A stretch of DNA of 64,000 bases, from contig JADLDG010000035.1 in NCBI GenBank assembly GCA_020846775.1, positions 31,569 to 95,568 on the forward strand, given 5' to 3'. A program made the translations under genes and the position numbers. This document shows, piece by piece, positions 39,012 through 52,988 of this stretch. The notes beneath the pieces were generated by a model. The model saw nothing but the letters and a program-made list of their open reading frames with translations. It did no database searches and was not told the origin of the DNA. The DNA is from Nitrospirota bacterium. Its GTDB lineage: Bacteria > Nitrospirota > 9FT-COMBO-42-15 > HDB-SIOI813. Each line of letters begins with the position of its first letter. The stretch's first letter is position 1.

Positions 39012-39428
39012 CTATTGTCCCACCAATTTTTCATTAAGTTCAGATAAACCATTTTTACCTTCTAAAAGAATTGGATTCAATTCATACTCTATAAGGTCCG
39101 CGAGGGTTATCCAATCCTTTCCTTCAAAGGCAGAGAGCATCTCTTTAAAGATATCAATGGATTTATTCCACGATGAAAGGGATTCTGATGAGATTTCGGA
39201 CTGTTCCAGACCATTCCTCAATTCCCTGATAAAATCCATAAGGTCGCTGAGATTGTCCATCAAGCCTGATATTTCATTAAAGACCCTCTCAGTTTGTTCA
39301 ATCCTGAGGGAATTGGCACAATCCATTAATCTGGCGCTGATCTGCCCAATACTCTCACAGGTGCTTATAATGCCATCAGTTATAGCTGTCAATAATTCCT
39401 CCCTTTTCTTAACATCTATGTTTGCCAT
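39012..39428 (-). CDS. hypothetical protein
   Basis: 138-aa acidic helical ORF. Its start overlaps the stop region of the upstream GT9-like gene (39416..39428), suggesting co-transcription with the flagellar modification island. Confidence 0.35.
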   Translation of the reverse strand: MANIDVKKREELLTAITDGIISTCESIGQISARLMDCANSLRIEQTERVFNEISGLMDNLSDLMDFIRELRNGLEQSEISSESLSSWNKSIDIFKEMLSAFEGKDWITLADLIEYELNPILLEGKNGLSELNEKLVGQ

Positions 39429-41134
39429 ACGCCTCTCCCTTCTAATGTTAAAGTGCTATTGTTGTTAAACGGTTCAATAAGCTGAATCATTGCAGAGGTC
39501 TGGATTATAAGATTCTTGTATAAGGTGCATGCTGCACTGGCTAAGACCGCTACGTCTTCGCCTTCAAGACTTTCTCTCCCGAATTTAAAGTAAATCACAA
39601 TGGGACGCAGTGCAATATTAGTAAAACCAATTATATCTATATCCTGATCAATTAGTGGTACATCTGCCCAGATATCTTTAATCTTTGCGATATCAGGATT
39701 TTCCCTCTTAGCCTCTTCCGCTATCAGGCTGACTTTTTCAAGTGCCCTCCCGGCTAATTCCTTAAGGCTCCTGAGTGCATCAATCTCATTACTAATTTCC
39801 CAACCGTTAATCCCTTCTGTCACCACTTTTGAAAAAAGGGATTTATCGGGATGATGGCGTAGCGGGGAATTCTCCGGCACAATGGAAGCAGCATTGTGAT
39901 CAAGGGTCTGCAGCCACACCAGTCTGTACAAGTGACGGAAAAAGTCTTCCCTGGTAATGGGCCTTTTGATCCTTGGTATGTACTCTAATAATCCATCATC
40001 AGAAAAGACGGCCTCATTAACCTGCATACCATCCCATAAAGGGGAGTCATCAACCTCCTTTAAACGACCATCGTTATAAAGCATCTCAATAACCCTGTAG
40101 ACACCATCCACACTGACAGTGTCATTACAGATCATGTCCTGACACTTTACATGAAAGCTGCAAGGGTGACAAGGGAGATTCGACTCTATTACTATATGTC
40201 CTTTCCCATATGGGCCGGTCTCACGGAAATAGGCCGCACCGAGGGAGATTCCTATAACCCTTGTCCCTACGGCCGTCGCAATATGCATTGTACCTGAATC
40301 GTTAGAAACAAGAAGATTACAGCACTTCAGATAGGCAGCAAGCTCCTTCAGCGATGTCTTGCCGACCATATCTATTACATCGCTTCCAACCCCCATCTTT
40401 ATTTCTTCACCCAGCGCCCTTTCGCCGCCTGAACCGAAGACTATAACCTTTGCTCCAAGCCTGCTCGTTAATTTCTTTGCAAGTTCAACATATCGTCCTG
40501 TGGCCCACATCTTATGTCTGTCACTAGCGCCCGGCTGAAATCCTATTACAAAATCACCACCGCTGACCCCCGATTTCCGTAATTGCGATTTAGCGGTATC
40601 AAAGACTTCTTCCGGGACTTCCAGAAAAAGTCCTTTTTCTTTCGGCATGGCCCCACCGGCCTTAATATATATGTCACATAGATGAAAAGGATTGTAAATC
40701 CTTCCAGGGACTATATTGAAGAAATATCTTAACCATGGATGTTTTATAAGGGAATGTCCTTTATTATCAGCAATGTATCCCCTGAACTCTTTAGAGCTGA
40801 CGAGAGACATTATGGCTGCACTCACTGTTGTATGAGTGAAGTTTATCACACAGTCATACCCGACCCTGTTTATATCCTCCAACATCTCTTCCATATACCT
40901 GTATTTGCTGACAAGACCGGGGAACTCACCACGCCCGCCCGCTATGAATCCATCCATATTGAAGCTTATGAGCCTGTCTACAAATGGGATGTAGTTACAT
41001 ATTTCGGCAAAGGCGGAGTTTATCAGCAACGTAATCCTGACATCAGTGTAGGCGTCTTTTAGACCTGCCATCACAGGGGTAGTTTGAACAAGGTCTCCCA
41101 TACGTGTAAGATTGATTATCAGGACATTTTTCAT
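39416..41134 (-). CDS. glycosyltransferase family 9 (heptosyltransferase-like) fused to a roughly 230-aa C-terminal domain of unknown function
   Basis: N-terminal NVLIINLTRMGDLVQTTPV pattern typical of GT9/RfaF-WaaC. C-terminal third has no recognisable motif. Confidence 0.5.
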   Translation of the reverse strand: MKNVLIINLTRMGDLVQTTPVMAGLKDAYTDVRITLLINSAFAEICNYIPFVDRLISFNMDGFIAGGRGEFPGLVSKYRYMEEMLEDINRVGYDCVINFTHTTVSAAIMSLVSSKEFRGYIADNKGHSLIKHPWLRYFFNIVPGRIYNPFHLCDIYIKAGGAMPKEKGLFLEVPEEVFDTAKSQLRKSGVSGGDFVIGFQPGASDRHKMWATGRYVELAKKLTSRLGAKVIVFGSGGERALGEEIKMGVGSDVIDMVGKTSLKELAAYLKCCNLLVSNDSGTMHIATAVGTRVIGISLGAAYFRETGPYGKGHIVIESNLPCHPCSFHVKCQDMICNDTVSVDGVYRVIEMLYNDGRLKEVDDSPLWDGMQVNEAVFSDDGLLEYIPRIKRPITREDFFRHLYRLVWLQTLDHNAASIVPENSPLRHHPDKSLFSKVVTEGINGWEISNEIDALRSLKELAGRALEKVSLIAEEAKRENPDIAKIKDIWADVPLIDQDIDIIGFTNIALRPIVIYFKFGRESLEGEDVAVLASAACTLYKNLIIQTSAMIQLIEPFNNNSTLTLEGRGVWQT

Positions 41135-41137
41135 TGA

Positions 41138-42952
41138 TCAATCCTTCTTCGCAGCAAACTGCTTACCGATCTCATTTATCAATACAAATATCTTATCCAC
41201 TCTCGAAAGTTCACCCACACCGGACGCCATATCATCAACGATATCAGAGATAGTAATAGCTCCTTTATTTCTGAACCGTTCCAGATACCTGCCAAGTTCA
41301 GTATGCCTGTCAGCCTCTGCGATAAGCCCCTCCACATCCTCTTTTCTTGAATCCCATGAAGGACGCTCATATCCCCTTTCAAGGATAAACTCAAACATCT
41401 TTTCCATCCTGTGCTCATAAGTATGTTCTTTTATCACCCTTTCCATTCCTCTTTGCGCTATCGCAGCCATTTCTTCATGATTTTCCAGATAATAGTTGAT
41501 CTTTCTCCTCGCATCAGTGAGATCTTTAAAGCATATAATCTCTTCATCCATATTGAACAGTTCTAACAAATTAGACCGGCAATCAACCAATTGAAAAGAC
41601 CCGCATGCTGCTATTTCAAATGTCCTTGGATTGACAAAATCACCGTGAGGGTTAACCCCTTCGTGATATGTGGAAGAATGGATGTTAATATTTATCTTCG
41701 AAGCATTAAATATCTTTACTGTCTCTTCTGTATCTATCCATTCACCGCCTCTTTGAATATGCCTCAGCAATGGCAGGCCGACATCCCACTCGCTCCCCCA
41801 TATCTTAAGATCAAAATCAAGCAATCCGCTGAAGAAAAACCTCCTGTTATGGTATCCGGCCCCAACAAACGATATATCACTTCCGTAAGTGTCTATTTCT
41901 TCTTTTGTCAGGTAAAGCCTCCGGTGAACTTCCTGAGATGCAGCCATAGGAAGATATGAGTAGTTTCTAACGCCACTCGCATCTAATTTGTCAAAAAACT
42001 GGTCCCTCTGGATGGTGAAGAAATAATCATAAAGGGGCGCTATCCTCTCCCAGTAGTTCATAAACCTGAAGTCCTCAACAAACCAGAAGGCGGTGGGTAT
42101 CCTGTTCTCTTTAAGCTTCTGCAGACTTCCTTCGGTTAAAGGGGCCTGTGCAAGGGCAAAAACGAGGTCTGGCTTAAACTCTGCGCACCGTGCTATGGCT
42201 GCCTCTGACAGAAAGGAGATAAACATGGAGCGCAGTTGATTCTGATGGGCCTTTTCACCTGTTATCCCGGGGATTGACTGAAAGACTTCGTTATACTTAC
42301 TGTTGTCTACATAATCAACCTGATGACCCAGTTTTTTCAAGGCAGAGACGCAGTATCCTGCAACAGGGAGAGAGCCGCCGTAGATCGGCCCTACGACCAT
42401 GATCTTCAAACCACTCTTCACAGTCTGACGTAATCTTAGTTTCTTATGGAGGTTCTTTAAACATGATTCACTTACCATGACAGATGGACTATGCTCTACT
42501 ATTGTAAAGCATTTTGGCAACAACGGTATTTTATCCCCTGTTAACAGTTTCACCCTTGTGAGGACATGAGTTAAATCAAAATGTTCCAGAGCTGTTTTCA
42601 GGATATCGAGCCTTGGCTCATAGACAATTATCTCCATACCTGAAATATTGCAAATATCGAGCTCGCAAAGCCCGGCAACATGGTACCCAAGTCCAAAACC
42701 GAGGACGACAACAGCAGATCCCATTTCAACCTTTTCCCGCTGATATTCAACCCACTTGCCAGCCTCCTTCTCAGGATCATACAGGCTATGCAGGGTGATA
42801 TCCCCTACCTTCAAAGAAAGTTTCCCTGACTTAGATGTATGCAGCTTCAAATCATCACTGACACATGCCTCAATAACTGAAGTTGCAAGTGCAGGGTCAT
42901 ATTTCTTCATGACCTCTAAATTTCTATCGAATATGAGGTTATTGGCAGACAT
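41138..42952 (-). CDS. Maf-like (DUF115/MptE-like N-terminal) - CgeB-like (DUF3880 + GT1) putative flagellin glycosyltransferase
   Basis: N-terminal HSLYDPEKEA and VVLGFGLGYH motifs recur in the paralog at 46778..48460. The C-terminal half resembles the CgeB/YkvP glycosyltransferase-like domain. Confidence 0.5.
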   Translation of the reverse strand: MSANNLIFDRNLEVMKKYDPALATSVIEACVSDDLKLHTSKSGKLSLKVGDITLHSLYDPEKEAGKWVEYQREKVEMGSAVVVLGFGLGYHVAGLCELDICNISGMEIIVYEPRLDILKTALEHFDLTHVLTRVKLLTGDKIPLLPKCFTIVEHSPSVMVSESCLKNLHKKLRLRQTVKSGLKIMVVGPIYGGSLPVAGYCVSALKKLGHQVDYVDNSKYNEVFQSIPGITGEKAHQNQLRSMFISFLSEAAIARCAEFKPDLVFALAQAPLTEGSLQKLKENRIPTAFWFVEDFRFMNYWERIAPLYDYFFTIQRDQFFDKLDASGVRNYSYLPMAASQEVHRRLYLTKEEIDTYGSDISFVGAGYHNRRFFFSGLLDFDLKIWGSEWDVGLPLLRHIQRGGEWIDTEETVKIFNASKININIHSSTYHEGVNPHGDFVNPRTFEIAACGSFQLVDCRSNLLELFNMDEEIICFKDLTDARRKINYYLENHEEMAAIAQRGMERVIKEHTYEHRMEKMFEFILERGYERPSWDSRKEDVEGLIAEADRHTELGRYLERFRNKGAITISDIVDDMASGVGELSRVDKIFVLINEIGKQFAAKKD

Positions 42953-42989
42953 AATTTCCTGAATTATCTTCTTCCTTTTCTCATTAAGT

Positions 42990-43991
42990 CTAAACTATTG
43001 CTTTTGACGAAGCCCTGTTTATTATGCCTTTAAGCCCAATGGCATCACTTCTTTCGGGCTCAAACAGGAGAAGTTTATCTATGCTATCAAGTGCCTTATC
43101 AAGTTGCCCGAGCTTGAAGCTCACATCTGCATGCCGATAAAGAAAATCAGTATCAGCCGGATGATGTACCAAATACTCCTCCAGGATATCAATAGCCTTA
43201 TTGAAATCCTGGGAATCGATTGCTGACATCAGGGTATTACACATCTTTTTATTTCCAGACTTTTCTGCCTTTATCAGGTATTGAATTATAAAGAGATCTT
43301 TAAGTTCTTCATGTGACAGACCTTTCAGATTAACCCTGCCAAAGGATATCTCTCCTGAAAGAGGATCATGCAAGGAACTATAAGCAGGATCAATATTGGC
43401 AGTTATCCCTGTTATCTCATATCCAGCCTCTGTAAACAGGGATTCCATATCTTTCATCGTAAAGAATCTCAGATGGGTTCTATCGAGGATACCCGAGTCC
43501 TGATACTTCCAATGCCCTTCCACCAGCATGTTTAGAACCCCGTAATACCGTACATTCGGAATGCTTGCGACAATAGAACCAGAATCAGCAAGATAGTGTT
43601 TGAATCTCCTGAGTGTTGACAATGGTTCCTTCAGGTGTTCCAGTATGTCGGCAAATATAATACAGTCAAAATAACCATCTTCATATTGAAGTTCCAGACA
43701 CGTCACATCTCCCTTTATAACCCGTGACAGATTCTCATTTGCCCTCTTACTCGCAATTGGATCAACTTCAATACCAACAACTTCTTCAGCCCCTTTTTCC
43801 AGCAGCCTTTTCCCGAGTATACCCTCTCCGCAACCCACATCAAGAATCCTCATGGCTTCCTCGGGCACAAGAGTCTCGACTTCTTTTCTTCCCTGGCGAA
43901 AGTATTCCCTGTCAACAGTCTTATCTAATCCATTTTGCGTCTGACTCCTCGTATCGTTAATCACTTTATCTCCTGCGCTACATGGATACAT
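42990..43991 (-). CDS. class I SAM-dependent methyltransferase fused to TPR repeats
   Basis: SAM-binding motif I ILDVGCGEGILG. Motif post-I/II (DCIIFADILEHL). C-terminal TPR-like repeats. Confidence 0.6.
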   Translation of the reverse strand: MYPCSAGDKVINDTRSQTQNGLDKTVDREYFRQGRKEVETLVPEEAMRILDVGCGEGILGKRLLEKGAEEVVGIEVDPIASKRANENLSRVIKGDVTCLELQYEDGYFDCIIFADILEHLKEPLSTLRRFKHYLADSGSIVASIPNVRYYGVLNMLVEGHWKYQDSGILDRTHLRFFTMKDMESLFTEAGYEITGITANIDPAYSSLHDPLSGEISFGRVNLKGLSHEELKDLFIIQYLIKAEKSGNKKMCNTLMSAIDSQDFNKAIDILEEYLVHHPADTDFLYRHADVSFKLGQLDKALDSIDKLLLFEPERSDAIGLKGIINRASSKAIV

Positions 43992-46767
43992 AGCCTTCTA
44001 TCTGTCTTTTAAGTTCCACCGCCCCTGTCATTTCTTTATTGAACAATAAAACCTTTTCCAGATTGTCCAGCGCGGTGTCATAGTCATGAAGCTTAGAACA
44101 AACCTCCGAATATTTAATGATAATTGACAAATCAAGTGGATGTAACTCTAAATATGATTCTATTAGTCCCCTGGCGTCTGCATGCCTTCCTTCTGCAATG
44201 GTGGCATCAATCTCAGCTATCAGATCCGCTGGCTCTTCAAATGCCTTTCTGAAAAACCTGAGTGGCGCGCTATTCAACATTTCCAGACCCATTTCTTTTA
44301 CAATGTTATAAAACCCTTCGTTGGTATAACGTTCCACATTCAGATGCCATCCGGCCTCACCATTGTTATTATAAAATGAAGCAAACATAATTAAATAACC
44401 ATTAGGGTTTAAGTGTTCAATCAGGTATTTGACGGTTTTCTCCGGTTCTACCAAATGTTCAACCACATCCAGCATGATCACAACATCATATCTATTTGAA
44501 CCGAGGAAATCATCCTTGTATGCATCAATCATGTTCACATCAAGGCATCTCCTTCCAAACCGCCATTTTGCATAATTGAAGGTCTTGCCGGGGATATCTG
44601 CATAATTAAGTCGTATGTCACTTATCCTGGACAGATTGATGATCTGACTCCCTATCCCGCCGCCAAAATCAAGAATGTCAAGCTTTCCACGTTCAGAGGA
44701 GACTTGCCGACAAAATCTGGTTATCTCATCAATCCCCTGCATATACATGGGATTCTCATAATTGTATTGGACCAGATCATAGAGATATGAATCCGTATTG
44801 ATGTAAAACTCGTTGACCTTTTCCTGGGTCAGAATGCATTTAGAGATGTCACCCCAATCTTTAATCTGTTGGTCATAAACACACCTTATACGACTTATAA
44901 CCTCATCAACATCTACGCCGGTATAACGTGCCAATTCCTGGACCGCTCCTCTAAAAGAGGACTGTACCAGTTCTTCAAAAAGAAGACTGAACTTCTGGGC
45001 TATCTTTTGTGAGTCAAATTCATTAATAGCCCGCTCCCTTCCTTTTATACACAACTCTTTTTTTAATGTGTCATCTTTCAGAAGATTTATAATCGCAGAA
45101 GAAAGTCCTCTCGGATCATTGGATTGAACAAGTATTCCTGCATCACCCACCACCTCCGGAATAGAGCCGGAATAAGTTGAGATAACTGGAAGACCGCAGG
45201 CCATAGCCTCTGTCAAAACCATTCCGAACTGTTCCTTCCATGTTCTTGTAGAAATACTTGGAAGAACAAATATATCGGCCATGTTAAACATTTCATGCAT
45301 TCTGTGGTAAGGGTAGCCCTCTATAAATGTAAACATTGAGCCGACTCCAAGCTCCTCAACCCTGCTTTTAATCCCAGCTGATTCAGATCCTTTTCCAATG
45401 ACTACAAACCTGAAGTGAACATCCTTAACACTATCCTCCTGGGTAACCAATTTTGCAGCGTATAGCAGGTCATAGATACCCTTTTCCCAGACTATTCTTC
45501 CTGTAAACAACACAACTCGCTCCTCTTTGCCGATACCAAATTCTTTTCTTAACCTCCATCTTGCCTCGTTATCCGGCCTGAACCTGTTTACATCAATTCC
45601 CATTGGAATGACAGTTATCTTGTCTTCCGGTACCCCTTCTATGATCAGGGCATCTTTTGCTCTTTCGGTCACGGCAACAAAGTGATCCACCATCTGCCGG
45701 TTAAACCGCTTCATCTCTCTCATCTGCTCATCTTCCTCGTAGGCGAAGGGGATATTTTCCCATTCGAGAGCAATGATCCTCTTTCCAAATTTTTGTTTCA
45801 TAACTGCTGCCTGATATGTAAATATCCAGGTAATATCAGCTGTATAAATAATATCCTTATCGAGGAGTTCTGCCTCAAGGCCTATCATATAGGCAGGGTT
45901 TTGAGGATGGGGAGGAAGTTTAACAACAGGAAGAGTAATATGGGATAGATCAAAACTTGATTGAGTTGTCGTATAAGAAGTTATGTCAAATGTTTTGTAC
46001 AGAGGTTCATAATTCTGCATCTCCCAGTGATTAAGATTAGGCCCCCTTAATATCGCAACCCTGGGACGTTCAGACATCTTTTCAGAAGTATATGGTGGAA
46101 CCCAACGGCTAACCATAGTCCTAAGCGGCCTGACCTGGACATCATATTCCCTGTAAAAAAGTTCTTCCGGATTATTGAAACCACTTTCTTCCATTTGTGA
46201 ATATTGCTCACTTTTTTTCCAATACTTTTCCTTATCCAGGAAACCATAATGTACAACGTATGCATCCCAGTGTTTGTCTAATCCATCGTAAGGTTTCGTC
46301 AATAGTTCATGTAACTGCCCCTCCCATTTGACCTCCTTGCGGTTACGCCAAATCCTCGGAATATTTTCATAATCATCAGCTCCCCTGGAATAATACTTTT
46401 CATTTCCAATGAGATTACACTGACGGATGAAATAACCGGTAGTGTCTCCCGGAGTTGATTCAAGCAGGGTTCTTATATTTTCTTCGAAGTACTGCGAAAA
46501 TGCCTCATCTGCATCAAGGCGCACCACCCAGTCACCTGTGCAATTGTCAAGAGAGATCTGCCGCTGCTTCCCAAAATGGCCTTCCCATATATGTTGAATC
46601 AACGTAACATTCCGGTAAGACCTGAGTATTTCCAGCGTGCCATCAGTACTGCCACCATCAACAACTACGATCTCGTCGGCAAATGTACATGAGCTCAACG
46701 CCCTTGCAATATTCTTTTCCTCATTCATTGTAATCATCGAAACGGAAATCTTCATAACTTCCTCCAA
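43978..46767 (-). CDS. multidomain glycosyltransferase: GT2 - GT4(GT1-fold) - SAM methyltransferase - TPR (929 aa)
   Basis: N-terminal GT-A (ISVSMITMNEEKNI ... VVDGGSTDGT ... DADE). Central GT-B/GT4 segment (VLFTGRIVWEKGI ... EQFGMVLTEAMACGLPVI). C-terminal SAM MTase motif I (ILDFGGGIGSQ ... MLDVVEHL). TPR tail. Confidence 0.6.
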   Translation of the reverse strand: MEEVMKISVSMITMNEEKNIARALSSCTFADEIVVVDGGSTDGTLEILRSYRNVTLIQHIWEGHFGKQRQISLDNCTGDWVVRLDADEAFSQYFEENIRTLLESTPGDTTGYFIRQCNLIGNEKYYSRGADDYENIPRIWRNRKEVKWEGQLHELLTKPYDGLDKHWDAYVVHYGFLDKEKYWKKSEQYSQMEESGFNNPEELFYREYDVQVRPLRTMVSRWVPPYTSEKMSERPRVAILRGPNLNHWEMQNYEPLYKTFDITSYTTTQSSFDLSHITLPVVKLPPHPQNPAYMIGLEAELLDKDIIYTADITWIFTYQAAVMKQKFGKRIIALEWENIPFAYEEDEQMREMKRFNRQMVDHFVAVTERAKDALIIEGVPEDKITVIPMGIDVNRFRPDNEARWRLRKEFGIGKEERVVLFTGRIVWEKGIYDLLYAAKLVTQEDSVKDVHFRFVVIGKGSESAGIKSRVEELGVGSMFTFIEGYPYHRMHEMFNMADIFVLPSISTRTWKEQFGMVLTEAMACGLPVISTYSGSIPEVVGDAGILVQSNDPRGLSSAIINLLKDDTLKKELCIKGRERAINEFDSQKIAQKFSLLFEELVQSSFRGAVQELARYTGVDVDEVISRIRCVYDQQIKDWGDISKCILTQEKVNEFYINTDSYLYDLVQYNYENPMYMQGIDEITRFCRQVSSERGKLDILDFGGGIGSQIINLSRISDIRLNYADIPGKTFNYAKWRFGRRCLDVNMIDAYKDDFLGSNRYDVVIMLDVVEHLVEPEKTVKYLIEHLNPNGYLIMFASFYNNNGEAGWHLNVERYTNEGFYNIVKEMGLEMLNSAPLRFFRKAFEEPADLIAEIDATIAEGRHADARGLIESYLELHPLDLSIIIKYSEVCSKLHDYDTALDNLEKVLLFNKEMTGAVELKRQIEGYVSM

Positions 46768-46777
46768 AACCAGCTGT

Positions 46778-48460
46778 TCAGGAATAGCGCTTCTTCATGC
46801 TGTCAATCAGCATCTTTATCCGGTGGACATACGTATGTTCCCTCGAGATCCTTTCTCTTCCACATTCCGATATTCGCTTTCTTTCCTGAGAATTGTTCAG
46901 ATAAAACTTTAAAAGTCCCGGTATCTCCTCCCTGTTTTTATAGGTTATAACCTCTTTCCCTATATCAAAGAGATCACCTAACGCATCCTGATCATCAGTC
47001 AATAGAAATGCACCACATGCCGGGACATCAAAGACCCGCTGATTAACGGCGCTACCCATCTGCAGATTAGTAGCGTTGAAATTTATCTTGCAGGCATTGT
47101 AAAAGCGGGGAAGTTCACTGTAATAGTTTAACGGAGGCCTGATATTGAAATCTCTGCTTAAGAGTTCATGCCAGCCTTTATCCCCGTAAACCCTCGGACT
47201 GTATTCTTTAAGTCTTTCTATGCAAGAGAGTCTGTATATAAGTGTTGATCTCCAGAGAACAGCGGCCTCAAGATCAAGCCTCTCCTGAACAGGAAGGGCT
47301 CTTACTTTTTCTTGCTCATCATTATTCAACATTCTCAATAATTCATCGAAAGACAGATGAGAGGAACCAAGGCGCTGCGATAACCTTTCAGTAATAGAGC
47401 GCAATTTCACTGGTACCTTTTTCAGCTTTTCTGCTGCCGGTTCGACCATAGAGTTGCCTACAAAACCTATGACTGTATTGAATCTGTTTTTATCCTTCTG
47501 ACTTAAATTTAAAGGTTTAAAGACATCAGTGTCCGCTGCAAGTGGCAGGTATTCAACTAACTCAAAACCCATAGCCTTCATATCGTTTATATATCCCTTA
47601 TCCCATAAATAAAGTGAGACATATGGAGATACATTTTTTTCAAAGGCCTTGACTATAAGATTCGGGCTGTCAACATACCACGATGCCACAGGCATCTCAA
47701 TTGATTTTAAAAAAGATGTCAAGACCCCGTCTTCATCAAAGCCAAGATGGTTAATGGTGAGGAGGAAATCCGGTTTGAATTCAAGGATGGTACTCAACAT
47801 GCGCGATACAATGGCCTCCCCATCTTCTCCCTTCTTTAAAGGAACTTTTACGACCTCTTGACCAAGGCGTTTAATAGCGTCTGCCACCTCGGAGGTCAGG
47901 AAATAGCCATAATCTATAAAGGCGATCTTAGTCTTTTCCTCCTTAAACCTTGGGTATCTGAGCCTTTCCCAGAGCCTGACTGATGTTGTGTTTTTTAAGG
48001 AGATAAGGATAGGATTATAGTAGTCTGGCATGGCTGAAACGACCGGAGCCAGGGGAAAGGAGGCAACAGAAGGCATTCCAGACGTTAACTGATACCTGGT
48101 AATCTCTCTTATAGCCGCATCAGAAGTGACTCCGATTATGAATCTAACCCTATCTTCGATCTCTCCCATCCTACCATATTCCTTTGCCAGTCCATACATC
48201 TCATGACTTGATTCAACCACAATAATCCTGGCCTCCGGAAACCTGCGGACAAGCTCCATCAGATGATAACCAAGCCCCAATCCTAATACCACTAATAGCC
48301 CTTTCCCATCAAAATAAAAGGCATCTGCAATTGCCCTGGCTTCTGCCTCGGGGTCATAGAGGCTGTGAAGTGTTTTTAAAGAGCCGTCTTCATACGTAAC
48401 CCTTATTGAATAACTGCCATTTTTCGTTTCTACTAAGGAATGATTATTGATAACAGACAC
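46778..48460 (-). CDS. Maf-like (DUF115) - CgeB-like putative glycosyltransferase, paralog of 41138..42952
   Basis: HSLYDPEAEA and VVLGLGLGYH N-terminal motifs. C-terminal CgeB-like region. Same architecture as the first paralog. Confidence 0.5.
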   Translation of the reverse strand: MSVINNHSLVETKNGSYSIRVTYEDGSLKTLHSLYDPEAEARAIADAFYFDGKGLLVVLGLGLGYHLMELVRRFPEARIIVVESSHEMYGLAKEYGRMGEIEDRVRFIIGVTSDAAIREITRYQLTSGMPSVASFPLAPVVSAMPDYYNPILISLKNTTSVRLWERLRYPRFKEEKTKIAFIDYGYFLTSEVADAIKRLGQEVVKVPLKKGEDGEAIVSRMLSTILEFKPDFLLTINHLGFDEDGVLTSFLKSIEMPVASWYVDSPNLIVKAFEKNVSPYVSLYLWDKGYINDMKAMGFELVEYLPLAADTDVFKPLNLSQKDKNRFNTVIGFVGNSMVEPAAEKLKKVPVKLRSITERLSQRLGSSHLSFDELLRMLNNDEQEKVRALPVQERLDLEAAVLWRSTLIYRLSCIERLKEYSPRVYGDKGWHELLSRDFNIRPPLNYYSELPRFYNACKINFNATNLQMGSAVNQRVFDVPACGAFLLTDDQDALGDLFDIGKEVITYKNREEIPGLLKFYLNNSQERKRISECGRERISREHTYVHRIKMLIDSMKKRYS

Positions 48461-49973
48461 CCTTTGCTAAAATCTCATCTATTTTATTTAATTCCGAAGT
48501 AACTCTGTTGAGGGATTCCGCCTCCAGGTAATACGCTCCTATAGCATCACCCACAGTCATAGCATATATTTTATAAATACATGCTACAAAGTCTTCCTCC
48601 CGGCCGGATAACGTATTATGTCTGGCCAAAAGATATTCGGAAAACTGATTAAGGTAGTTCATGATATTCGGGATCAATATATTCTGTTTAAAATTATACA
48701 TATTTTGGGGGGAGCGAACGGCATTTTCAAACAACATAGAATACAAAATATTCAGGCCCTCGTCTCCCTGTATTCTCATTCTTTTCAAACCTTTTTCTAT
48801 CCCGTCAGGATGCTTATTTATATTCTTCTGAATAGCACTTAGTAGTGATTTTAATGCTGTCATGGGATTGCTGTTCACGGGGTTAGACTCAGAAATTGAG
48901 AGGTTAATAAGGTTATAGGTACCAATAATCACAGCTACTAACTGGTCCCAGGTAATGTTATATCTTGAAAATAAATAGGGCAGTTCGTTTTGCAAAGTAT
49001 GAACATTGGCCTTTGAACCTATACTATGCCGTTTTAATACGTCAACCGCACCCCTTTCATGCCAATGATAAACGCCCGTTGAATTTAAGTAGCCGATAAC
49101 CTTACGTTTGTGCAGGAGTTTTACACCAAAGTCAATATCCTCTGCATTCATCATGGGGGTGAATTTGACCTCTCCAAATATATCCCTTCTCACACATGAT
49201 GAAACGTTGTCAAAGAATGTCAGCCTCCTTTTCGTAGCCCCATCAAATGCCCTCAGGCCTATTCCCCCAATGTCCATCAAGAGGGTGTACATGGAGTCCT
49301 GCTCAAACCCCAGTATTGTACCCAGCAATTCATTCTTCCATAAACTGAAGAGGTCAGCTTCAGGTTTAACAAACTGCTTTGACGAAAGGGCAGCTAATCG
49401 CGGGTATTCGATTAATGGGCATACCATGTTGTAAAGCCAATAATTATTGATAGGAAGAGCGTCTTGCACTGTAAAGACGAGGTAATCACCTGTCGCTTTT
49501 GCAGCCCCTGTATTTCGGGTCATACCATGATTGAATTCCTTCTGAGGGATATCTATAATTACCGCTCCGAACCCGGCAGCTATCTCTTTTGAATTGTCTG
49601 AAGATCCAGAATCGATCACAATAATTTCTATATCATTTACCTTTCTCTGAGACCTTATCATACCGAGTAAACCCTTTAATTTCTCTCCGCCATTATTGAC
49701 CGGTATAATAACTGAGACTTTATCCGCTATGGCAGACGGCCTTGTTCTTACATCAATTGGCGTTATCTCAAAGAGCAGACTCAATGCATTCCGCAGGGAA
49801 TCATCTTTTTCGACCAGTTTATTGCTCAAATCGGATATCGTACGTTCTGCAGCCATTACTTTCTTTAGATATCTTGTGGCTGCTTCATGTTTTTCCTTGA
49901 ATATGCGACTGGCACATTCCAGGGCCCATTCCATCTCCCGCACTTTGTCTTTTATCACCATATCATTTTGCAT
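48444..49973 (-). CDS. family 2 glycosyltransferase with N-terminal coiled coil and C-terminal unknown domain
   Basis: GT-A motifs VSVIIPVNNGGEKL ... IIVIDSGSSDNS ... DxD-like VQD. Confidence 0.55.
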   Translation of the reverse strand: MQNDMVIKDKVREMEWALECASRIFKEKHEAATRYLKKVMAAERTISDLSNKLVEKDDSLRNALSLLFEITPIDVRTRPSAIADKVSVIIPVNNGGEKLKGLLGMIRSQRKVNDIEIIVIDSGSSDNSKEIAAGFGAVIIDIPQKEFNHGMTRNTGAAKATGDYLVFTVQDALPINNYWLYNMVCPLIEYPRLAALSSKQFVKPEADLFSLWKNELLGTILGFEQDSMYTLLMDIGGIGLRAFDGATKRRLTFFDNVSSCVRRDIFGEVKFTPMMNAEDIDFGVKLLHKRKVIGYLNSTGVYHWHERGAVDVLKRHSIGSKANVHTLQNELPYLFSRYNITWDQLVAVIIGTYNLINLSISESNPVNSNPMTALKSLLSAIQKNINKHPDGIEKGLKRMRIQGDEGLNILYSMLFENAVRSPQNMYNFKQNILIPNIMNYLNQFSEYLLARHNTLSGREEDFVACIYKIYAMTVGDAIGAYYLEAESLNRVTSELNKIDEILAKGVCYQ

Positions 49974-49984: not shown

Positions 49985-51319
49985 TTACGCCAGAAAGGTA
50001 TCATTGATCATTATGGATTCTAAAAAGTCATAATCCACATTTCTAACCTTTGGAGCCATCGCACCTCTATCACTCAAAGACTCTGTATTGTCATCTCCAA
50101 CAATGAGGTTATTGGTTTTATAAAAGTCATATAATGCGCTTCCAGGGACCGGGGTATAAAAGGCAGGGGAAAAATGGACAGGTTTGACCCGTAAAACACC
50201 TTCAACAGTCATCAGATCATCTTCTTTGTGCCATCCGGTATCTGTTGGTATACCAAGGATATAGTTTGCCCAGACCTTTACACCATGTTTATGACAAATC
50301 TCCGCTGCCTTGAAGTTTTGATCTACCGTAACCCCTTTATTGAACCACTTCAATACCCTCGGGCTGAATGACTCAAATCCTACTATCAATAAGAGAAGAC
50401 CTGCAGCTGCCATATCCCCTATGAGTTTATCATTTTTACATATGTTATCAGCCCTGCTTGATGTGACCCATTTAAGACCATATTTCACGATTCCGCTGGA
50501 ATGAAGGGCAGTTATGAACTCTTCAACCCATTTTGGAGATACTATGAACTGATCATCATGGAACATAACGGATTTAATGCCATACCTGTCTATCAGCATC
50601 TTCAGTTCAGCTATGACATTTGACACGCTTCTCCCCCGAATATAAGTTTTTCGAGTCCCGTTTTCTCTTAATTTCGTATAGAGCTGATGCTCTCCAGGCC
50701 CACAACAGAACTTGCATGTATAAGGACATCCCCTTACGTTGATCATCTCAGCCATAGGTAAGGGAAACCTGAAACCAGTTAATCCAAATGGTTCGGAAAA
50801 CATTCTCCTTTTAAAGTCCGGCCAAATTTCCCTTTCCGGGAATGGGATCGTATCAAGATCCGGAGTTTCACCCCAAAAGCATTTAGGGAACATAGACGGA
50901 TCTTCTACCAATTCCACGAAGCTGATTTCTCCTTCACCCTGGATAACATAATCGAAATTGCCGCTATCAATGCACTCCTGCGGGAACATGGTTGGGTGAA
51001 CTCCGCCAGCGACCACAATTACCCCTGGTAAGACCTCTTTGGCTCTTTTGGCAGCTTCCAGAGCTATAGAATATTCTACAGAATGTATGGATATTCCTAT
51101 GAACTCCGGAGAGATAGCCTTTACAACCTGTTCATATTCACTCCAACCTGACAATGTCCTTAAGTCAGCAAGATGAACATCGTGCCCCCTTGCCTTTAAC
51201 GACCCTGCCAGATATGCAAGACCAAGGCGAATGAATGTTGTATCTGGTGATGGTTTGCTTATGTCCGCATTCCATGTGCTATATGCTATTGATGGATTAA
51301 CCAGTAAGACCTTTGCCAT
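49985..51319 (-). CDS. B12-binding domain radical SAM protein (class B rSAM)
   Basis: N-terminal cobalamin-binding-like Rossmann segment. CxxxCxxC cluster motif (CPYTCKFC). Confidence 0.65.
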   Translation of the reverse strand: MAKVLLVNPSIAYSTWNADISKPSPDTTFIRLGLAYLAGSLKARGHDVHLADLRTLSGWSEYEQVVKAISPEFIGISIHSVEYSIALEAAKRAKEVLPGVIVVAGGVHPTMFPQECIDSGNFDYVIQGEGEISFVELVEDPSMFPKCFWGETPDLDTIPFPEREIWPDFKRRMFSEPFGLTGFRFPLPMAEMINVRGCPYTCKFCCGPGEHQLYTKLRENGTRKTYIRGRSVSNVIAELKMLIDRYGIKSVMFHDDQFIVSPKWVEEFITALHSSGIVKYGLKWVTSSRADNICKNDKLIGDMAAAGLLLLIVGFESFSPRVLKWFNKGVTVDQNFKAAEICHKHGVKVWANYILGIPTDTGWHKEDDLMTVEGVLRVKPVHFSPAFYTPVPGSALYDFYKTNNLIVGDDNTESLSDRGAMAPKVRNVDYDFLESIMINDTFLA

Positions 51320-51353
51320 TTGAAGCCTCCATTAAAGAAGTAATTGAATATTT

Positions 51354-52988
51354 TCATTCCAATTGACCGGAATGCTCCCTGCACTCTTTAAATGACCTTA
51401 ATCCGCTTCCCCTGATGAGTTTTATTGTCTCTATTCTTTTAGGTGTCAGCCATGCATCCCTGACAGACATCTCTGTTATATTTGCTTCTGGCTTATCCCA
51501 GGCACCGGCTTCGCATGGGCAAAGCACCACGTCACCATCCGTTGTTATCGCCATCTCATTTTCTATGAAATAGCACAGATTGAAATTTGGCACCTCTTGT
51601 GAGACTTCAGCATCCATTTCCCCTCCTCTTATCCTGTATGCCGGGAACTGAACCTTATTAATGCCCAATTTTTCAAAATAATCTGTAAATTCCTTTCTAC
51701 TTTCAGACATGGTTAGAGGGAGTTGAATCTTTGTCACCCATACATCAGTTTTTGAGTTAAGTCGTTCTCTTATGGAGAGGAAGTTTTTAATATTAGTTAA
51801 AACTACATCAAGATCCAGACCCCGTCTTATCCTTTTGTATAAATCTTTATTCAATGTATCTATAGAAAATACGACAATATCAACATTTCCATCCAATAAC
51901 TGATTTGCCTTATACGTATCCAATAAATATCCAGGCGTCGCTATCCAGTTTTCAAATCCAAGTTTTTTTGCTCTCTTCATAAACCTGTATATCCTGTCGT
52001 CATACAATGGATCATTAATCCACTCCCAGTTTATTTTACACTTCCAGTCAACTTCATCAAAGATTTTATCAACCAGCCTCTCTGGCATCAATTTGTTTTT
52101 TCGTTTTTTTAAAACCATTTTCCTGGGACACATCAAACAACTCGAGGGACATCCAATAGCTGTTTCGAGAGAAAAATATGTGGGCAGCAAAATAGATTTA
52201 TCCAGAATATCCGCACAATCCTCCGAATTAGTACACTTATTGAAAGTATCTGCCTCGTCCTGAGTTAGTCTGATCTTTGAATTATCAGTTTTGATAAAAT
52301 ATCTGTCTTCAACTTGCCTGTCATCTTTCGTCTTATATGCAATGCTTACTTCATGGATACCATCTATCAGAACCAGCGTATTTATGTAAAACCTAAATCC
52401 GCTGCAGCTTGAGTTATTTATGTCGGGATAGATCAATGCGACATCATCCCTCTGCAACCCATATTCTGCCCGCAACAAGTGCCTGCCATCAACATATACT
52501 TCGATAGATCCAATGCCTGTAATGGATATCGCCCATCCTTCAAAGCGCTTGATACCCTGAAGAGGTTGGAGCAATTCCGGCAAATCAAGATGTCTGTGAA
52601 CATTCTCCTCAATTTCAAAATCCTTGTAAATTTTCTTGCATATTTCACGGAGATTAATTGTAGCCTCCGAATATGCAGGGGCCAAATCCAGCGCCTTTGT
52701 GAACTGAAATATTGCATCTATAGACTTTCCTTTAATAAATAAACACGCCCCGTAATTATTTCTTATCTCCGGATTATCCGGATACCTCTCTGTCAAATAC
52801 CCAAATATCCTTTCTGCCTCATCAAATAATCCTGATCCATATTTCCCCATGGCTTGTTCCATCAAGGTAAAATCCTCTGAATTGATATTAAGACCTGCCC
52901 TATGACTGTTGTCTAACATGAGTAAACGACTCCAAATGGTATCTTCTTGACTCCCGCCGCAGTTTAGACGCAGAGGAGTGACTGACAT
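51354..52988 (-). CDS. TPR - radical SAM / SPASM-like domain protein
   Basis: N-terminal TPR. CxxxCxxC motif (CPSSCLMC). C-terminal Cys-rich auxiliary-cluster-like segment (CYFIENEMAITTDGDVVLCPCEAG). Confidence 0.55.
   Translation of the reverse strand: MSVTPLRLNCGGSQEDTIWSRLLMLDNSHRAGLNINSEDFTLMEQAMGKYGSGLFDEAERIFGYLTERYPDNPEIRNNYGACLFIKGKSIDAIFQFTKALDLAPAYSEATINLREICKKIYKDFEIEENVHRHLDLPELLQPLQGIKRFEGWAISITGIGSIEVYVDGRHLLRAEYGLQRDDVALIYPDINNSSCSGFRFYINTLVLIDGIHEVSIAYKTKDDRQVEDRYFIKTDNSKIRLTQDEADTFNKCTNSEDCADILDKSILLPTYFSLETAIGCPSSCLMCPRKMVLKKRKNKLMPERLVDKIFDEVDWKCKINWEWINDPLYDDRIYRFMKRAKKLGFENWIATPGYLLDTYKANQLLDGNVDIVVFSIDTLNKDLYKRIRRGLDLDVVLTNIKNFLSIRERLNSKTDVWVTKIQLPLTMSESRKEFTDYFEKLGINKVQFPAYRIRGGEMDAEVSQEVPNFNLCYFIENEMAITTDGDVVLCPCEAGAWDKPEANITEMSVRDAWLTPKRIETIKLIRGSGLRSFKECREHSGQLE

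What the first reader, a model, noticed from the sequence alone, without database searches (positions are those of the whole stretch)
41138..48460. Two paralogous Maf(DUF115)-CgeB fusion proteins
Both proteins (604 and 560 aa) begin with the HSLYDPExEA and VVLGxGLGYH motifs I associate with the DUF115/MptE-like domain of motility accessory factors. Both continue into a CgeB/YkvP-like glycosyltransferase region. Duplication suggests either two distinct sugars or sites being transferred, or phase or paralog variation. The fusion of the Maf N-domain to a CgeB-type transferase differs from the canonical Campylobacter Maf layout.
Basis: partly seen in the sequence, partly recalled or inferred. Interest (0 to 1): 0.55.

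Follow-up and report, generated by a model that had tools for sequence, protein, structure and literature searches.

The report
Maf-like flagellar glycosyltransferases with swapped catalytic core
Two anciently diverged enzymes encoded beside the flagellin genes of a Nitrospirota bacterium carry the N-terminal domain of Maf flagellin glycosyltransferases fused to an unrelated CgeB-type sugar-transferring core, and a neighbouring GT9 enzyme probably carries the Maf C-terminal domain, so they look like an undescribed family of flagellum-decorating enzymes.

Summary
ORFs A (41138-42952, 604 aa) and B (46778-48460, 560 aa) exist, carry both motifs, and are distant paralogues (25-33% identity).

The domain naming needs correction. 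The motifs lie in the Maf N-terminal domain (PF20157), not in DUF115/MptE (PF01973), which is absent.
- The rest of each protein is a CgeB-type GT-B glycosyltransferase (PF12996 + PF13524), closest in fold to GT4 enzymes.

A and B are two old, separately conserved clades, not recent or phase-variable copies.

New findings:
- A is followed directly by an extended GT9 gene in 74 of 80 species loci.
- That GT9 C-extension matches the Maf C-terminal domain (hhalign 95%, controls ≤4.4%).
- The same N-domain is also fused to MptE, GT4 and GT9 cores elsewhere.

The genes sit in a tightly packed island of soluble GT, methyltransferase and radical-SAM enzymes just downstream of fliC-flaG-fliD-fliS-fliT. 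This linkage recurs in several phyla but not in Nitrospinota.

Best reading: cytoplasmic glycosyltransferases acting on flagellin. This is inferred, not demonstrated. No publication describing the architecture was found. I rate it a new variant of a known kind, of moderate interest.

The parts
41138..42952 (-). Protein A, 604 aa: Maf N-terminal domain + CgeB-type GT-B + short helical tail
   Evidence: ORF. Pfam PF20157, PF12996, PF13524. AlphaFold model pLDDT 88, pTM 0.82. 100% identical to a Nitrospirota MAG protein annotated only as 'glycosyltransferase'.
42419..42952 (-). A, residues 1-178: Maf N-terminal domain (degenerate Rossmann / methyltransferase-like fold) with invariant H55 S56 Y58 P60 E63 G85 G87 G89 Y90 H91 E112
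41363..42412 (-). A, residues ~181-530: GT-B glycosyltransferase core (DUF3880 + Glyco_trans_1_2), conserved W290, F362.G364, R370, N421, N423, N441.R443.F445-E446, D457, H510-T-Y, R515
   Evidence: Pfam. Foldseek against PDB: GT4-type GT-B enzymes TreT, BshA, MshA and PimB', E about 1e-10 over about 400 columns. Conservation.
46778..48460 (-). Protein B, 560 aa: distant paralogue of A. Shorter Maf-N-like domain (motifs at res 31-41, 56-66, E83) + CgeB-type GT-B with an insertion of about 40 aa and no C-terminal tail
   Evidence: ORF. BLASTP against A. Pfam PF13524 108 bits, PF12996 41 bits, PF20157 22.1 bits (below the 23.5 cut-off). Forms its own conserved clade.
39416..41134 (-). Extended GT9 protein, 572 aa, the obligate downstream neighbour of A (3-nt gap): GT9 GT-B (res 1-346) + 226-aa C-extension
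   Evidence: Pfam PF01075 96.5 bits. PDB 3tov E 1.3e-20 over res 2-318. Directly follows A on the same strand in 74 of 80 species loci, median distance 18 nt.
39440..39820 (-). Part of the GT9 C-extension (protein res ~439-565) that resembles the Maf C-terminal helical domain
   Evidence: hhalign A6 against true-Maf alignment A5: probability 95.0%, E 3.6e-8, 136 columns, mapping to Maf columns 471-617 of 624. Controls (reversed, shuffled, off-target) gave probability 4.4% or less. Not recovered by profile-to-sequence search of PDB.
39012..39428 (-). DUF8042-family small helical protein (138 aa), overlapping the end of the GT9 gene
   Evidence: 82% identical to the L086 gene annotated PF26154. 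Follows GT9ext in 35 of 80 loci. No match in the local Pfam copy and no informative PDB match.
42990..43991 (-). SAM-dependent methyltransferase + TPR protein (333 aa) immediately upstream of A
   Evidence: Pfam Methyltransf_23 79 bits, TPR_19. An orthologue lies upstream of A in 39 of 80 loci, and it is fused to a CgeB-type GT in Nitrospina.
43978..46767 (-). Four-domain enzyme (929 aa): GT2 + GT4 + methyltransferase, with a C-terminal region that looks TPR-like by eye only (no Pfam TPR hit); lies between B and the MT-TPR gene
   Evidence: Pfam Glycos_transf_2, Glycos_transf_1, Methyltransf_12/23. The same gene follows B in L086, L088 and L089.
48444..49973 (-). GT2-family glycosyltransferase (509 aa), overlaps the start of B by 17 nt
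   Evidence: Pfam PF00535 58.9 bits.
49985..52988 (-). Two radical-SAM enzymes (a 444-aa B12-binding one and a 544-aa one) at the head of the island
   Evidence: Pfam B12-binding + Radical_SAM, and Radical_SAM.
53066..56618 (-). Flagellar filament block directly upstream: fliC (55764-56618, 284 aa), flaG (55324-55737), fliD (53896-55293), fliS (53458-53874), fliT-like (53066-53461)
   Evidence: Pfam. The FliT-like ORF is 49% identical to the L086 gene annotated PF05400. Only 77 nt separate the fliT-like ORF from the first island gene.
36674..38755 (-). GAF-PAS-HisKA-HATPase-REC hybrid histidine kinase, recurrent downstream neighbour; a possible regulator whose membership of the system is uncertain
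   Evidence: Pfam. Present downstream in 17 of 80 loci at a strict cut-off, and in L086 and L087.

Best explanation
A and B are soluble, cytoplasmic glycosyltransferases that act on the flagellar filament, most likely on flagellin before it is exported. They belong to a large uncharacterised family. In this family the N-terminal domain of Maf flagellin glycosyltransferases is fused to a CgeB-type GT-B catalytic core, in place of the sialyltransferase-like MptE/DUF115 core of Maf. A works together with the translationally coupled GT9 enzyme downstream, whose C-terminal extension resembles the Maf C-terminal domain. The pair therefore carries both Maf accessory domains on two GT-B enzymes.

In this model the accessory domains bring the catalytic cores to the acceptor protein. 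A, B, GT9 and the island's GT2/GT4 enzymes then build a glycan, which the methyltransferases and radical-SAM enzymes modify. The glycan would not be a nonulosonic acid. B is an ancient paralogue with its own conserved residues, so it probably differs from A in donor, site or step.

Shown: domain homologies, fold, conservation, synteny, and absence of membrane segments. Inferred: flagellin as the acceptor, the docking role of the Maf N and C domains, cooperation between A and GT9, and the nature of the glycan.
For: Domain identity:
- hhalign against 32 PF01973-positive Maf proteins gives probability 100%, E 3.2e-48.
- The core is a GT-B fold (Foldseek E about 1e-10 to TreT, BshA, MshA) with PF13524 and PF12996.
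- Both clades keep the same GT-B signature residues.

Modularity:
- Of 93 top hits to an N-domain profile, 37 carry MptE-like, 26 Glyco_trans_1_2, 3 GT4 and 1 GT9.
- A homologous island (L089) holds the reciprocal MptE-like + TPR protein.
- FlmG shows experimentally that an acceptor-binding N-domain plus a GT-B core is a working design for a flagellin glycosyltransferase (PMC7591256).

Partner:
- GT9ext follows A in 74 of 80 loci, median 18 nt apart.
- Its C-extension matches the Maf C-terminal domain at probability 95-96.5%, with controls at 4.4% or less.

Context:
- In the window the island runs fliS, fliT-like, then nine genes through to DUF8042, with gaps of 77 nt or less.
- The same adjacency to fliC-flaG-fliD-fliS-fliT appears in L086 and L087, and partly in L088, L083 and L081.
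- Among A-centred loci, flagellar genes lie nearby in L002, L022, L029, L034, L035, L040, L056 and L074. These come from Nitrospirota, Desulfobacterota and Latescibacterota and have different gene orders.
- No cluster protein has a clear transmembrane segment. There is no flippase, polymerase or priming transferase. This fits cytoplasmic protein glycosylation.
- TPR domains, which bind flagellin in FlmG, occur on the methyltransferase next to A.
Against: - No experiment links any member of this family to flagellin. No paper was found that mentions CgeB-type enzymes in flagellin glycosylation, PF20157 or DUF8042.
- The function of the Maf N and C domains is itself unknown (PMC11339370), so the docking role is an extrapolation.
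- In all 29 Nitrospinota loci no flagellar gene was detected within 10 kb of the MT-A-GT9 module; in L077 the annotated neighbours are housekeeping genes. Those genomes are, however, reported to encode flagella (PMC5029188).
- Only 8 of the 51 non-Nitrospinota A-centred loci show flagellar genes within 10 kb. This is partly because the island is longer than the flank that was fetched.
- The near-invariance of the HS.YDP..EA and G.G.GYH...E residues looks more like a small-ligand pocket than a protein-docking surface.
- The Maf-C similarity rests on one profile-profile method at 5% identity. It is not recovered against the 5MU5 sequence by hmmsearch.
- The 284-aa flagellin lacks the exposed D2/D3 domains, so few surface sites are available.
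Confidence: 0.6

Rival explanations
1. The island makes a non-flagellar glycoconjugate, such as a cell-envelope or LPS-type glycan, an EPS, or a glycan on another protein. Its position next to fliC would then be incidental or only regulatory.
For: GT9 is classically the LPS heptosyltransferase family. CgeB-type enzymes are known from spore-surface glycans (source names). No flagellar gene was detected within 10 kb of the core module in any of the 29 Nitrospinota loci, and in L077 its annotated neighbours are housekeeping genes. Most A-centred loci show no flagellar gene within 10 kb.
Against: Unambiguous homology of the N-domain to Maf, a family known only from flagellin glycosylation. Repeated adjacency to fliC-fliD-fliS in several phyla with different gene orders, far above the roughly 1-5% I estimate for a random 22-kb window. 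No membrane, export, flippase or lipid-carrier priming genes, and no transmembrane segments.
Confidence: 0.2
2. The Maf-type N-domain is not an acceptor-docking module. It is instead a small-molecule pocket for a nucleotide, SAM or a similar ligand, with a catalytic or allosteric role. This would make A and B bifunctional or ligand-regulated enzymes. It is a rival for the mechanism of the N-domain only and is compatible with a flagellar target.
Against: The fold is truncated to four parallel strands. Published descriptions call it a degenerate Rossmann-like fold of unclear function and report no ligand (PMC11339370). The island already encodes several complete methyltransferases.
Confidence: 0.3
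3. B (or A) is a catalytically dead paralogue that serves as a scaffold or specificity subunit for the other, rather than a second transferase.
For: B replaces the invariant E446 of A with Asp. It lacks the A-type GDF segment that precedes the NPRTFE motif, carries an insertion of about 40 aa, lacks the first two N-domain helices, and scores below the Pfam cut-off for PF20157. Nitrospinota manage without B.
Against: The B clade keeps N460, N462, N473, R475, F477, D478, D489, H542-T-Y and R547 at 94-100%, the same positions as in A. That is the pattern expected of an active enzyme under purifying selection.
Confidence: 0.1
4. The pair is a recent duplication used for antigenic, phase or paralogue variation of the flagellar glycan, as the first reader suggested as one option.
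For: Two similar architectures lie 3.8 kb apart in one island. Campylobacter maf genes are known to be phase-variable (my own knowledge, not tested here).
Against: A and B share only 23-32% identity. Each clade is conserved at 43% or more across phyla, and both occur together in many genomes. There are no homopolymer or short-repeat tracts in A or B; the only tract is a G6 in the GT2 gene at 48707.
Confidence: 0.03

Closest known systems
Maf (motility accessory factor) flagellin nonulosonic-acid glycosyltransferases, e.g. Magnetospirillum magneticum Maf (PDB 5MU5) and Campylobacter, Aeromonas and Clostridium botulinum Maf
   Different: The defining MptE-like/DUF115 catalytic domain (PF01973) is absent and replaced by a CgeB-type GT-B fold. 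The C-terminal domain is not in the same polypeptide. No nonulosonic-acid biosynthesis genes lie in the 64-kb window, so the donor sugar probably differs.
CgeB / YkvP-type glycosyltransferases (PF13524 Glyco_trans_1_2 with PF12996 DUF3880), named after Bacillus subtilis spore-maturation proteins
   Same: Same catalytic-core families at high scores. Databases label homologues 'spore maturation protein CgeB', 'CgeB family protein' or 'spore protein YkvP'.
   Different: An added Maf N-terminal domain, a flagellar rather than sporulation context, and a non-sporulating host phylum (Nitrospirota).
FlmG of Caulobacter crescentus (flagellin O-glycosyltransferase; TPR domain + GT-B domain)
   Same: The same design: a non-catalytic N-terminal module joined to a GT-B transferase that acts on flagellin in the cytoplasm. 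In FlmG the N-domain binds flagellins and both domains are required (PMC7591256).
   Different: The N-module here is the Maf N-domain, not TPR. TPR repeats occur on a neighbouring enzyme instead. FlmG transfers pseudaminic acid. No sequence relationship to FlmG was tested.
GT4-type retaining GT-B enzymes (TreT, BshA, MshA, PimB')
   Same: Best structural matches to the catalytic core (Foldseek E about 1e-10, about 400 aligned columns).
   Different: Only 10-14% identity. Family-level membership and a retaining mechanism were not established.
GT9 heptosyltransferases, including the protein-modifying BAHT/TibC group
   Same: The partner protein has a clear GT9 domain. TibC shows that GT9 enzymes can O-glycosylate proteins (PMC4358343, abstract).
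   Different: It has a 226-aa C-extension resembling the Maf C-terminal domain. No relationship to TibC specifically was tested; the best PDB matches are 3tov and the LPS enzymes WaaF and WaaC.

Membership tests
Maf (motility accessory factor) glycosyltransferases | MAF_flag10 / MptE-like (DUF115, PF01973) catalytic domain | tested here: not met
   No PF01973 hit in A or B at E up to 0.01, and none in the precomputed domains of 240 homologues. All 32 true Maf proteins give PF01973 with the same tool.
Maf (motility accessory factor) glycosyltransferases | Maf N-terminal domain (PF20157), protein A | tested here: met
Maf (motility accessory factor) glycosyltransferases | Maf N-terminal domain (PF20157), protein B | tested here: inconclusive
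   Pfam 22.1 bits, below the 23.5 cut-off. However, all N-domain motifs are invariant in the B clade, B aligns with A through this region, and B is a row of alignment A2, which matches Maf. No separate structure was predicted for B.
Maf (motility accessory factor) glycosyltransferases | C-terminal alpha-helical domain in the same polypeptide | tested here: not met
   The tail of A (res 527-604) does not match Maf (probability 0.5%) and B has no tail. A similar domain is on the adjacent GT9 protein instead (probability 95%).
Maf (motility accessory factor) glycosyltransferases | Encoded in or next to the flagellin / flagellar glycosylation locus | tested here: met
   fliC-flaG-fliD-fliS-fliT lie directly upstream in the window and in L086 and L087. 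Adjacency recurs in other phyla.
Maf (motility accessory factor) glycosyltransferases | Linked nonulosonic-acid (Pse/Leg/Neu) biosynthesis genes providing a CMP-sugar donor | tested here: not met
   Pfam scans of about 60 of the larger ORFs across the 64-kb window found no NeuB/PseI-type synthase, PseB/PseC or CMP-sugar synthetase. The rest of the genome was not available.
Maf (motility accessory factor) glycosyltransferases | Demonstrated transfer of sugar to flagellin Ser/Thr | not testable with these tools
   Requires MS of flagellin or an enzyme assay.
CgeB / YkvP-type glycosyltransferases (PF13524 + PF12996) | Glyco_trans_1_2 domain above the curated cut-off | tested here: met
   A 132.5 bits, B 108.2 bits, cut-off 25.
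CgeB / YkvP-type glycosyltransferases (PF13524 + PF12996) | DUF3880 (YkvP_N) domain preceding it; overall GT-B fold | tested here: met
   A 54.1 bits, B 41.2 bits, cut-off 25.2. GT-B fold by Foldseek.
CgeB / YkvP-type glycosyltransferases (PF13524 + PF12996) | Role in the spore surface (sporulation context), as for the founding members | tested here: not met
   No sporulation genes in the window. The host is a Nitrospirota MAG and the context is flagellar.
FlmG-class flagellin glycosyltransferases | N-terminal TPR flagellin-binding domain | tested here: not met
   No TPR hit in A or B. TPR is present on the neighbouring methyltransferase.
FlmG-class flagellin glycosyltransferases | C-terminal GT-B glycosyltransferase domain | tested here: met
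   GT-B fold. Sequence relationship to FlmG itself was not tested.
GT9 (partner protein 39416-41134) | Glyco_transf_9 domain (PF01075) | tested here: met
   96.5 bits against a cut-off of 22. 3tov E 1.3e-20. NCBIfam heptosyltransferase equivalogs all score below their cut-offs, so it is not an orthologue of WaaC, WaaF or WaaQ.

The most novel reading that the evidence does not exclude
The N- and C-terminal domains of Maf form a portable, two-part device for recognising flagellin (or the flagellin-chaperone complex). Evolution has recombined it with at least four unrelated glycosyltransferase cores: MptE-like, CgeB-type, GT4 and GT9. In this island A (Maf-N + GT-B) and the adjacent GT9 (GT-B + Maf-C) would assemble into a heteromeric 'split Maf'. 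That complex would decorate flagellin with a methylated glycan that is not a nonulosonic acid and may contain heptose. This would define a third major class of flagellin glycosyltransferases, widespread in Nitrospirota, Desulfobacterota and Nitrospinota.
Probability: 0.3. Interest if true: 0.7.

Novelty: new variant of a known kind. Interest (0 to 1): 0.55.

Why it matters
Two classes of dedicated flagellin O-glycosyltransferase came up in the papers read here, Maf and FlmG, both studied with nonulosonic acids. What the Maf N- and C-terminal domains do is an acknowledged open question (PMC11339370).

This locus shows that the Maf N-domain is a mobile module with nearly invariant residues. It is attached to at least four different catalytic folds, and 6,792 representative clusters match it at E ≤ 1e-3. 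In one very common arrangement the Maf-N-like and Maf-C-like domains sit on two adjacent GT-B enzymes.

That makes the accessory-domain question directly testable through domain swaps, binding assays, and mutants of the conserved pocket. It also predicts flagellar glycosylation with a different glycan chemistry in environmentally important and poorly studied phyla: the nitrite oxidisers of Nitrospinota, and the sulfate reducers of Thermodesulfovibrionia and Desulfobacterota. Finally, it flags the 'spore maturation protein CgeB' labels on thousands of these proteins as functionally misleading.

Tried and rejected
- NCBIfam gave no hit for A or B.
- phmmer of full-length A against PDB sequences gave nothing.
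- The N-domain profile against PDB sequences found 5MU5 only weakly (E 0.006), so fold and profile-profile methods were needed.
- The sigma-70 promoter and intrinsic terminator scan over 38.6-57 kb was no better than shuffled sequence (47 found against 44 expected; 8 against 13). It says nothing about operon structure.
- Homopolymer search for phase variation: none in A or B.
- The Kyte-Doolittle scan found no convincing transmembrane segment. Maxima of 1.65 (A) and 1.75 (B12-rSAM) are borderline and read as buried core strands.
- DUF8042 and the C-terminal tail of A against Maf: no similarity.
- DUF8042 and the GT9 C-extension profiles against PDB sequences gave only generic helical or designed-protein noise, and 5MU5 was not recovered.
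- My first hhalign run used a contaminated query alignment (four over-long ORFs). It was repeated after cleaning and gave the same result.
- The afdb50 fold library was unavailable.
- I considered an EX7E-type motif (D438-x7-E446 in A) as a GT4 hallmark. I dropped it because the first position is not alignable in B.
- Literature searches for CgeB + flagellin, PF20157/DUF8042, and Nitrospirae + flagellin glycosylation found nothing relevant.

Full report
**1. The observation**

A is 41138..42952 (604 aa) and B is 46778..48460 (560 aa). Both carry LHSLYDPE.EA followed about 25 residues later by VVLG.GLGYH.

They are homologous along their whole length. BLASTP gives 33% identity over the last 117 residues (E 2e-18) and 25% over A residues 30-364 (E 1e-10). 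Pfam assigns Glyco_trans_1_2 (PF13524; 132.5 and 108.2 bits) and DUF3880 (PF12996; 54.1 and 41.2 bits) to both. This is the CgeB/YkvP-type architecture.

The N-terminal motif region matches Maf_flag10_N (PF20157). A scores 34.8 bits, above the 23.5 cut-off, and B scores 22.1 bits, just below. There is no hit to DUF115/MptE-like PF01973. NCBIfam has no model for either protein.

**2. The N-terminal domain**

A 44-sequence alignment showed H55, S56, Y58, P60, E63, G85, G87, G89, Y90, H91 and E112 to be invariant, paralogue B included.

- The full-length AlphaFold model is confident (pLDDT 88, pTM 0.82). The isolated N-domain (res 1-178) is even more so (pLDDT 94.5).
- A profile built only from A/B-type N-domains was searched against 1.84 billion representative proteins. 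It found 6,792 proteins at E ≤ 1e-3 and 2,947 at E ≤ 1e-10.
- Of 93 top hits, 82 match PF20157, 37 carry MptE-like PF01973 (true Maf proteins), 26 carry Glyco_trans_1_2, 3 carry GT4 domains and 1 carries GT9.
- An alignment of 32 hits that all carry PF01973 matches the N-domain alignment with hhalign probability 100%, E 3.2e-48, 28% identity, over Maf columns 1-187. It shows the same LHS.YDP.KEA and GFGLGYH motifs.

They belong to the Maf N-terminal domain, though, not to the DUF115 catalytic domain, which A and B lack. Published work describes this Maf domain as a degenerate Rossmann-like fold with weak methyltransferase similarity and unknown function (PMC11339370).

**3. The catalytic core**

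Foldseek of the full model against PDB gives GT-B glycosyltransferases of the GT4 type (TreT, BshA, MshA, PimB', GlgM and others) at E about 1e-10 over about 400 columns. A is therefore Maf-N (1-178), a linker helix, a GT-B core (about 181-530), and a 75-residue helical tail. B has a shorter N-domain, an insertion of about 40 residues in the GT-B, and no tail.

**4. The relationship between A and B**

Searches with A and with B each return large sets of full-length homologues: more than 2,600 and more than 1,000 at E ≤ 1e-5 among the candidates scored. Most are from Nitrospirota and Desulfobacterota MAGs. They are annotated only as 'glycosyltransferase', 'CgeB family protein' or 'spore maturation protein CgeB'.

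In a joint alignment of 112 A-type and 106 B-type proteins, identity within a clade is at least 43-46%, and between clades it is 23-32%. Both clades keep the N-domain motifs and the same GT-B signature: W290, F.G, R370, N421, N423, N441.R.F-E/D, D457, HTY and R515. Each clade also has its own invariant residues in both Rossmann halves. Examples are WFVEDF, AQ.P, H343 and GY.NR in A, against WYVDSP, NH.G.D..G, F314 and TL.YR in B.

True B orthologues accompany A in 29 of 80 species loci and are absent from Nitrospinota. Neither gene contains homopolymer tracts. This is an ancient duplication with functional divergence, not recent or phase-variable copies.

**5. Context in the window**

All genes here are on the minus strand. 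They run in this order:
- flgH, flgI, flgN, flgK, flgL, csrA, fliW
- fliC (284 aa), flaG, fliD, fliS, and a FliT-like ORF
- a radical-SAM enzyme, a B12-binding radical-SAM enzyme, and a GT2
- B, then GT2-GT4-methyltransferase (929 aa), then methyltransferase-TPR
- A, then GT9 with a C-extension, then a DUF8042 protein
- after a 256-nt gap, a GAF-PAS hybrid histidine kinase

From fliS to DUF8042 every intergenic gap is 77 nt or less, and several genes overlap. None of the island proteins has a convincing transmembrane segment. There is no flippase, polymerase, priming transferase or transporter. No nonulosonic-acid biosynthesis gene occurs anywhere in the 64 kb; the remainder is housekeeping, chemotaxis and c-di-GMP genes. 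The promoter and terminator scans were no better than chance.

**6. Context elsewhere**

A scan of one genome per species found relatives of A in 437 species, and 80 loci were fetched. These include Nitrospirota (Thermodesulfovibrionia and Nitrospiria), Desulfobacterota, Nitrospinota and Latescibacterota.

| Gene relative to A | Loci out of 80 |
|---|---|
| Extended GT9 directly downstream, same strand (median 18 nt apart) | 74 |
| MT(-TPR) upstream | 39 |
| DUF8042 after the GT9 gene | 35 |
| True B orthologue within 10 kb | 29 |
| Histidine kinase downstream (strict cut-off) | 17 |

Flagellar genes lie within 10 kb in 8 of the 51 non-Nitrospinota loci: L002, L022, L029, L034, L035, L040, L056 and L074. 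The gene orders differ; in L029 the order is A-GT9-DUF8042-fliC-flaG-fliD-fliS, and in L035 it is A-GT9-B-fliC. In the window fliC is 12.8 kb from A, so a 10-kb flank under-counts this linkage.

I therefore anchored further look-ups on B, which lies nearer fliC. Five of seven long contexts show flagellar genes:
- L086: flgI through fliT, then a 118-aa ORF, then B, GT2-GT4-MT, A, GT9, DUF8042 and the kinase.
- L087: fliC through fliT, then the island.
- L088: fliS.
- L083: fliS and fliT.
- L081: an FlhB-like gene and fliK.

In L085 and L089 the island simply runs to the edge of the fetched region.

In the 29 Nitrospinota loci no flagellar gene was detected within 10 kb. In the one locus annotated in detail, L077, the module (a fused GT4-CgeB-MT protein, A and GT9) sits among housekeeping genes. 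The Nitrospina core genome is nevertheless reported to encode flagella (PMC5029188).

**7. The partner protein**

The GT9 protein is a clear GT9 enzyme over residues 1-320 (3tov, E 1.3e-20). Its 226-residue C-extension has no Pfam assignment. I aligned C-extensions from the window and the loci and compared them with the true-Maf alignment.

| Comparison | hhalign probability | Score |
|---|---|---|
| C-extension vs full Maf (136 columns, Maf columns 471-617 of 624), E 3.6e-8 | 95.0% | 66.3 |
| C-extension vs the last 210 Maf residues only, E 7.6e-10 | 96.5% | 68.7 |
| Reversed query | 2.7% | 25.5 |
| 30 column shuffles (maximum) | 0.9% | 21.0 |
| 30 seven-column block shuffles (maximum) | 4.4% | 26.9 |
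| vs the A/B family | 1.3% | 22.9 |
| vs DUF8042 | 1.5% | 20.0 |
| vs Maf N-terminal + central part | 0.4% | 17.3 |

The tail of A and DUF8042 do not match Maf.

The caveats are real. Identity is only 5%. A profile-to-sequence search of PDB does not recover 5MU5. I treat the Maf-C-like assignment as probable, not proven.

If it is correct, the two accessory domains of Maf are distributed over two adjacent, translationally coupled GT-B enzymes.

**8. Mechanism**

The best-supported reading is that A, B and the GT9 protein are cytoplasmic glycosyltransferases directed at the flagellar filament protein. Maf-derived accessory domains would provide targeting, and possibly ligand sensing. The other GT2/GT4 enzymes would extend the glycan, and the methyltransferases and radical-SAM enzymes would modify it.

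FlmG is an experimentally supported precedent for this design. Its TPR N-domain binds flagellins and its GT-B domain transfers the sugar (PMC7591256). The reciprocal domain swap also exists: an MptE-like catalytic domain fused to TPR, found inside a homologous island (L089).

What is shown:
- the homologies, the fold and the residue conservation
- the A-GT9 synteny
- the recurrent linkage to flagellar genes
- the solubility of the island proteins

What is inferred:
- that flagellin is the acceptor
- that the N and C domains dock on it
- that A and GT9 cooperate physically
- that the glycan is not a nonulosonic acid

The strongest internal doubt concerns the N-domain. Its invariant G.G.GYH loop and the Glu at the end of strand 2 look like a cofactor or nucleotide pocket of the methyltransferase / spermidine-synthase type. 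It may therefore bind a small ligand rather than, or as well as, the acceptor protein.

**9. Novelty**

No paper in the searchable library connects CgeB-type enzymes with flagellin, mentions PF20157 or DUF8042, or describes flagellin glycosylation in Nitrospirota. The proteins are in public databases with generic or misleading names.

Failing the PF01973 test means A and B should not be filed as Maf proteins. They are CgeB-type GT-B enzymes that share Maf's N-domain and probably work like modular flagellin glycosyltransferases. I rate this a new variant of a known kind, with interest 0.55. The most novel reading the evidence allows is a heteromeric 'split Maf' that defines a third class of flagellin glycosyltransferases. 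I give that a probability of about 0.3.

Noticed in passing
window 39012-39428 (-): A 138-aa helical protein of family DUF8042 (PF26154) overlaps the end of the GT9 gene. It follows that gene in 35 of 80 loci but is absent from Nitrospinota. It has invariant residues (L41, R42, E102, D105, W106, D111, Y115, E116) and no informative structural or family match. It could be a chaperone-like or adaptor component of the system.
   Followed up: partly
window 36674-38755 (-): A GAF-PAS-HisKA-HATPase-REC hybrid histidine kinase lies 256 nt downstream of the island. It recurs in the same position in many Thermodesulfovibrionia loci (17 of 80 at a strict cut-off, plus L086 and L087), which suggests a regulatory link.
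   Followed up: partly
L089 6922-8565 (+): A homologous island in another Thermodesulfovibrionia genome encodes a 547-aa protein that has the Maf catalytic domain (MptE-like PF01973) fused to TPR repeats rather than to the Maf N-domain. This is the reciprocal domain swap to A and B.
   Followed up: no
L077 7149-13542 (+) (Nitrospina sp. isolate): In Nitrospinota the module is reduced to a 948-aa fused GT4-CgeB-methyltransferase, A and the extended GT9. It lies among housekeeping genes (MTHFR, PGK, RNase E/G), with no B paralogue, no DUF8042 and no flagellar genes within 10 kb.
   Followed up: partly
window 49985-52988 (-): Two radical-SAM enzymes, one with a B12-binding domain, head the glycosylation island. 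Similar genes recur in related islands (L087, L088, L089, L090), sometimes fused to methyltransferases. This hints at unusual radical (C-methylation-type) chemistry on the glycan or the protein.
   Followed up: no
window 55764-56618 (-): The flagellin is only 284 aa, so it has the D0/D1 domains and only a short Ser/Thr/Gly-rich central stretch (about res 140-200). Any glycosylation must occur on this short loop region, as in the mini-flagellins studied with Clostridium botulinum Maf.
   Followed up: no
one search hit list (P0243, P0257, P0258, P0267 and others): Many N-domain profile hits are only about 230-260 aa long, with the domain at the N-terminus. They may be gene fragments from short contigs or genuine stand-alone Maf-N-domain proteins.
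   Followed up: no
one search hits P0244, P0066, P0247, P0281, P0346: In some proteins of 600-1200 aa the Maf-type N-domain lies in the middle (for example residues 610-774 of 1200, or 324-490 of 910). These are fusions of A/B-type proteins with upstream GT4, MT or GT9 enzymes of the island, which supports a functional link between them.
   Followed up: partly
window 7514-9276, 23209-27409 (-): c-di-GMP and chemotaxis genes occur elsewhere in the window: PilZ, GGDEF, REC-GGDEF, CheA and a DUF4388 protein. PilZ genes also sit next to the module in L084 and L085.
   Followed up: no
window 48707: The only homopolymer tract of six or more G/C in the island is a G6 inside the GT2 gene (48444-49973). 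It is too short to argue for phase variation.
   Followed up: yes
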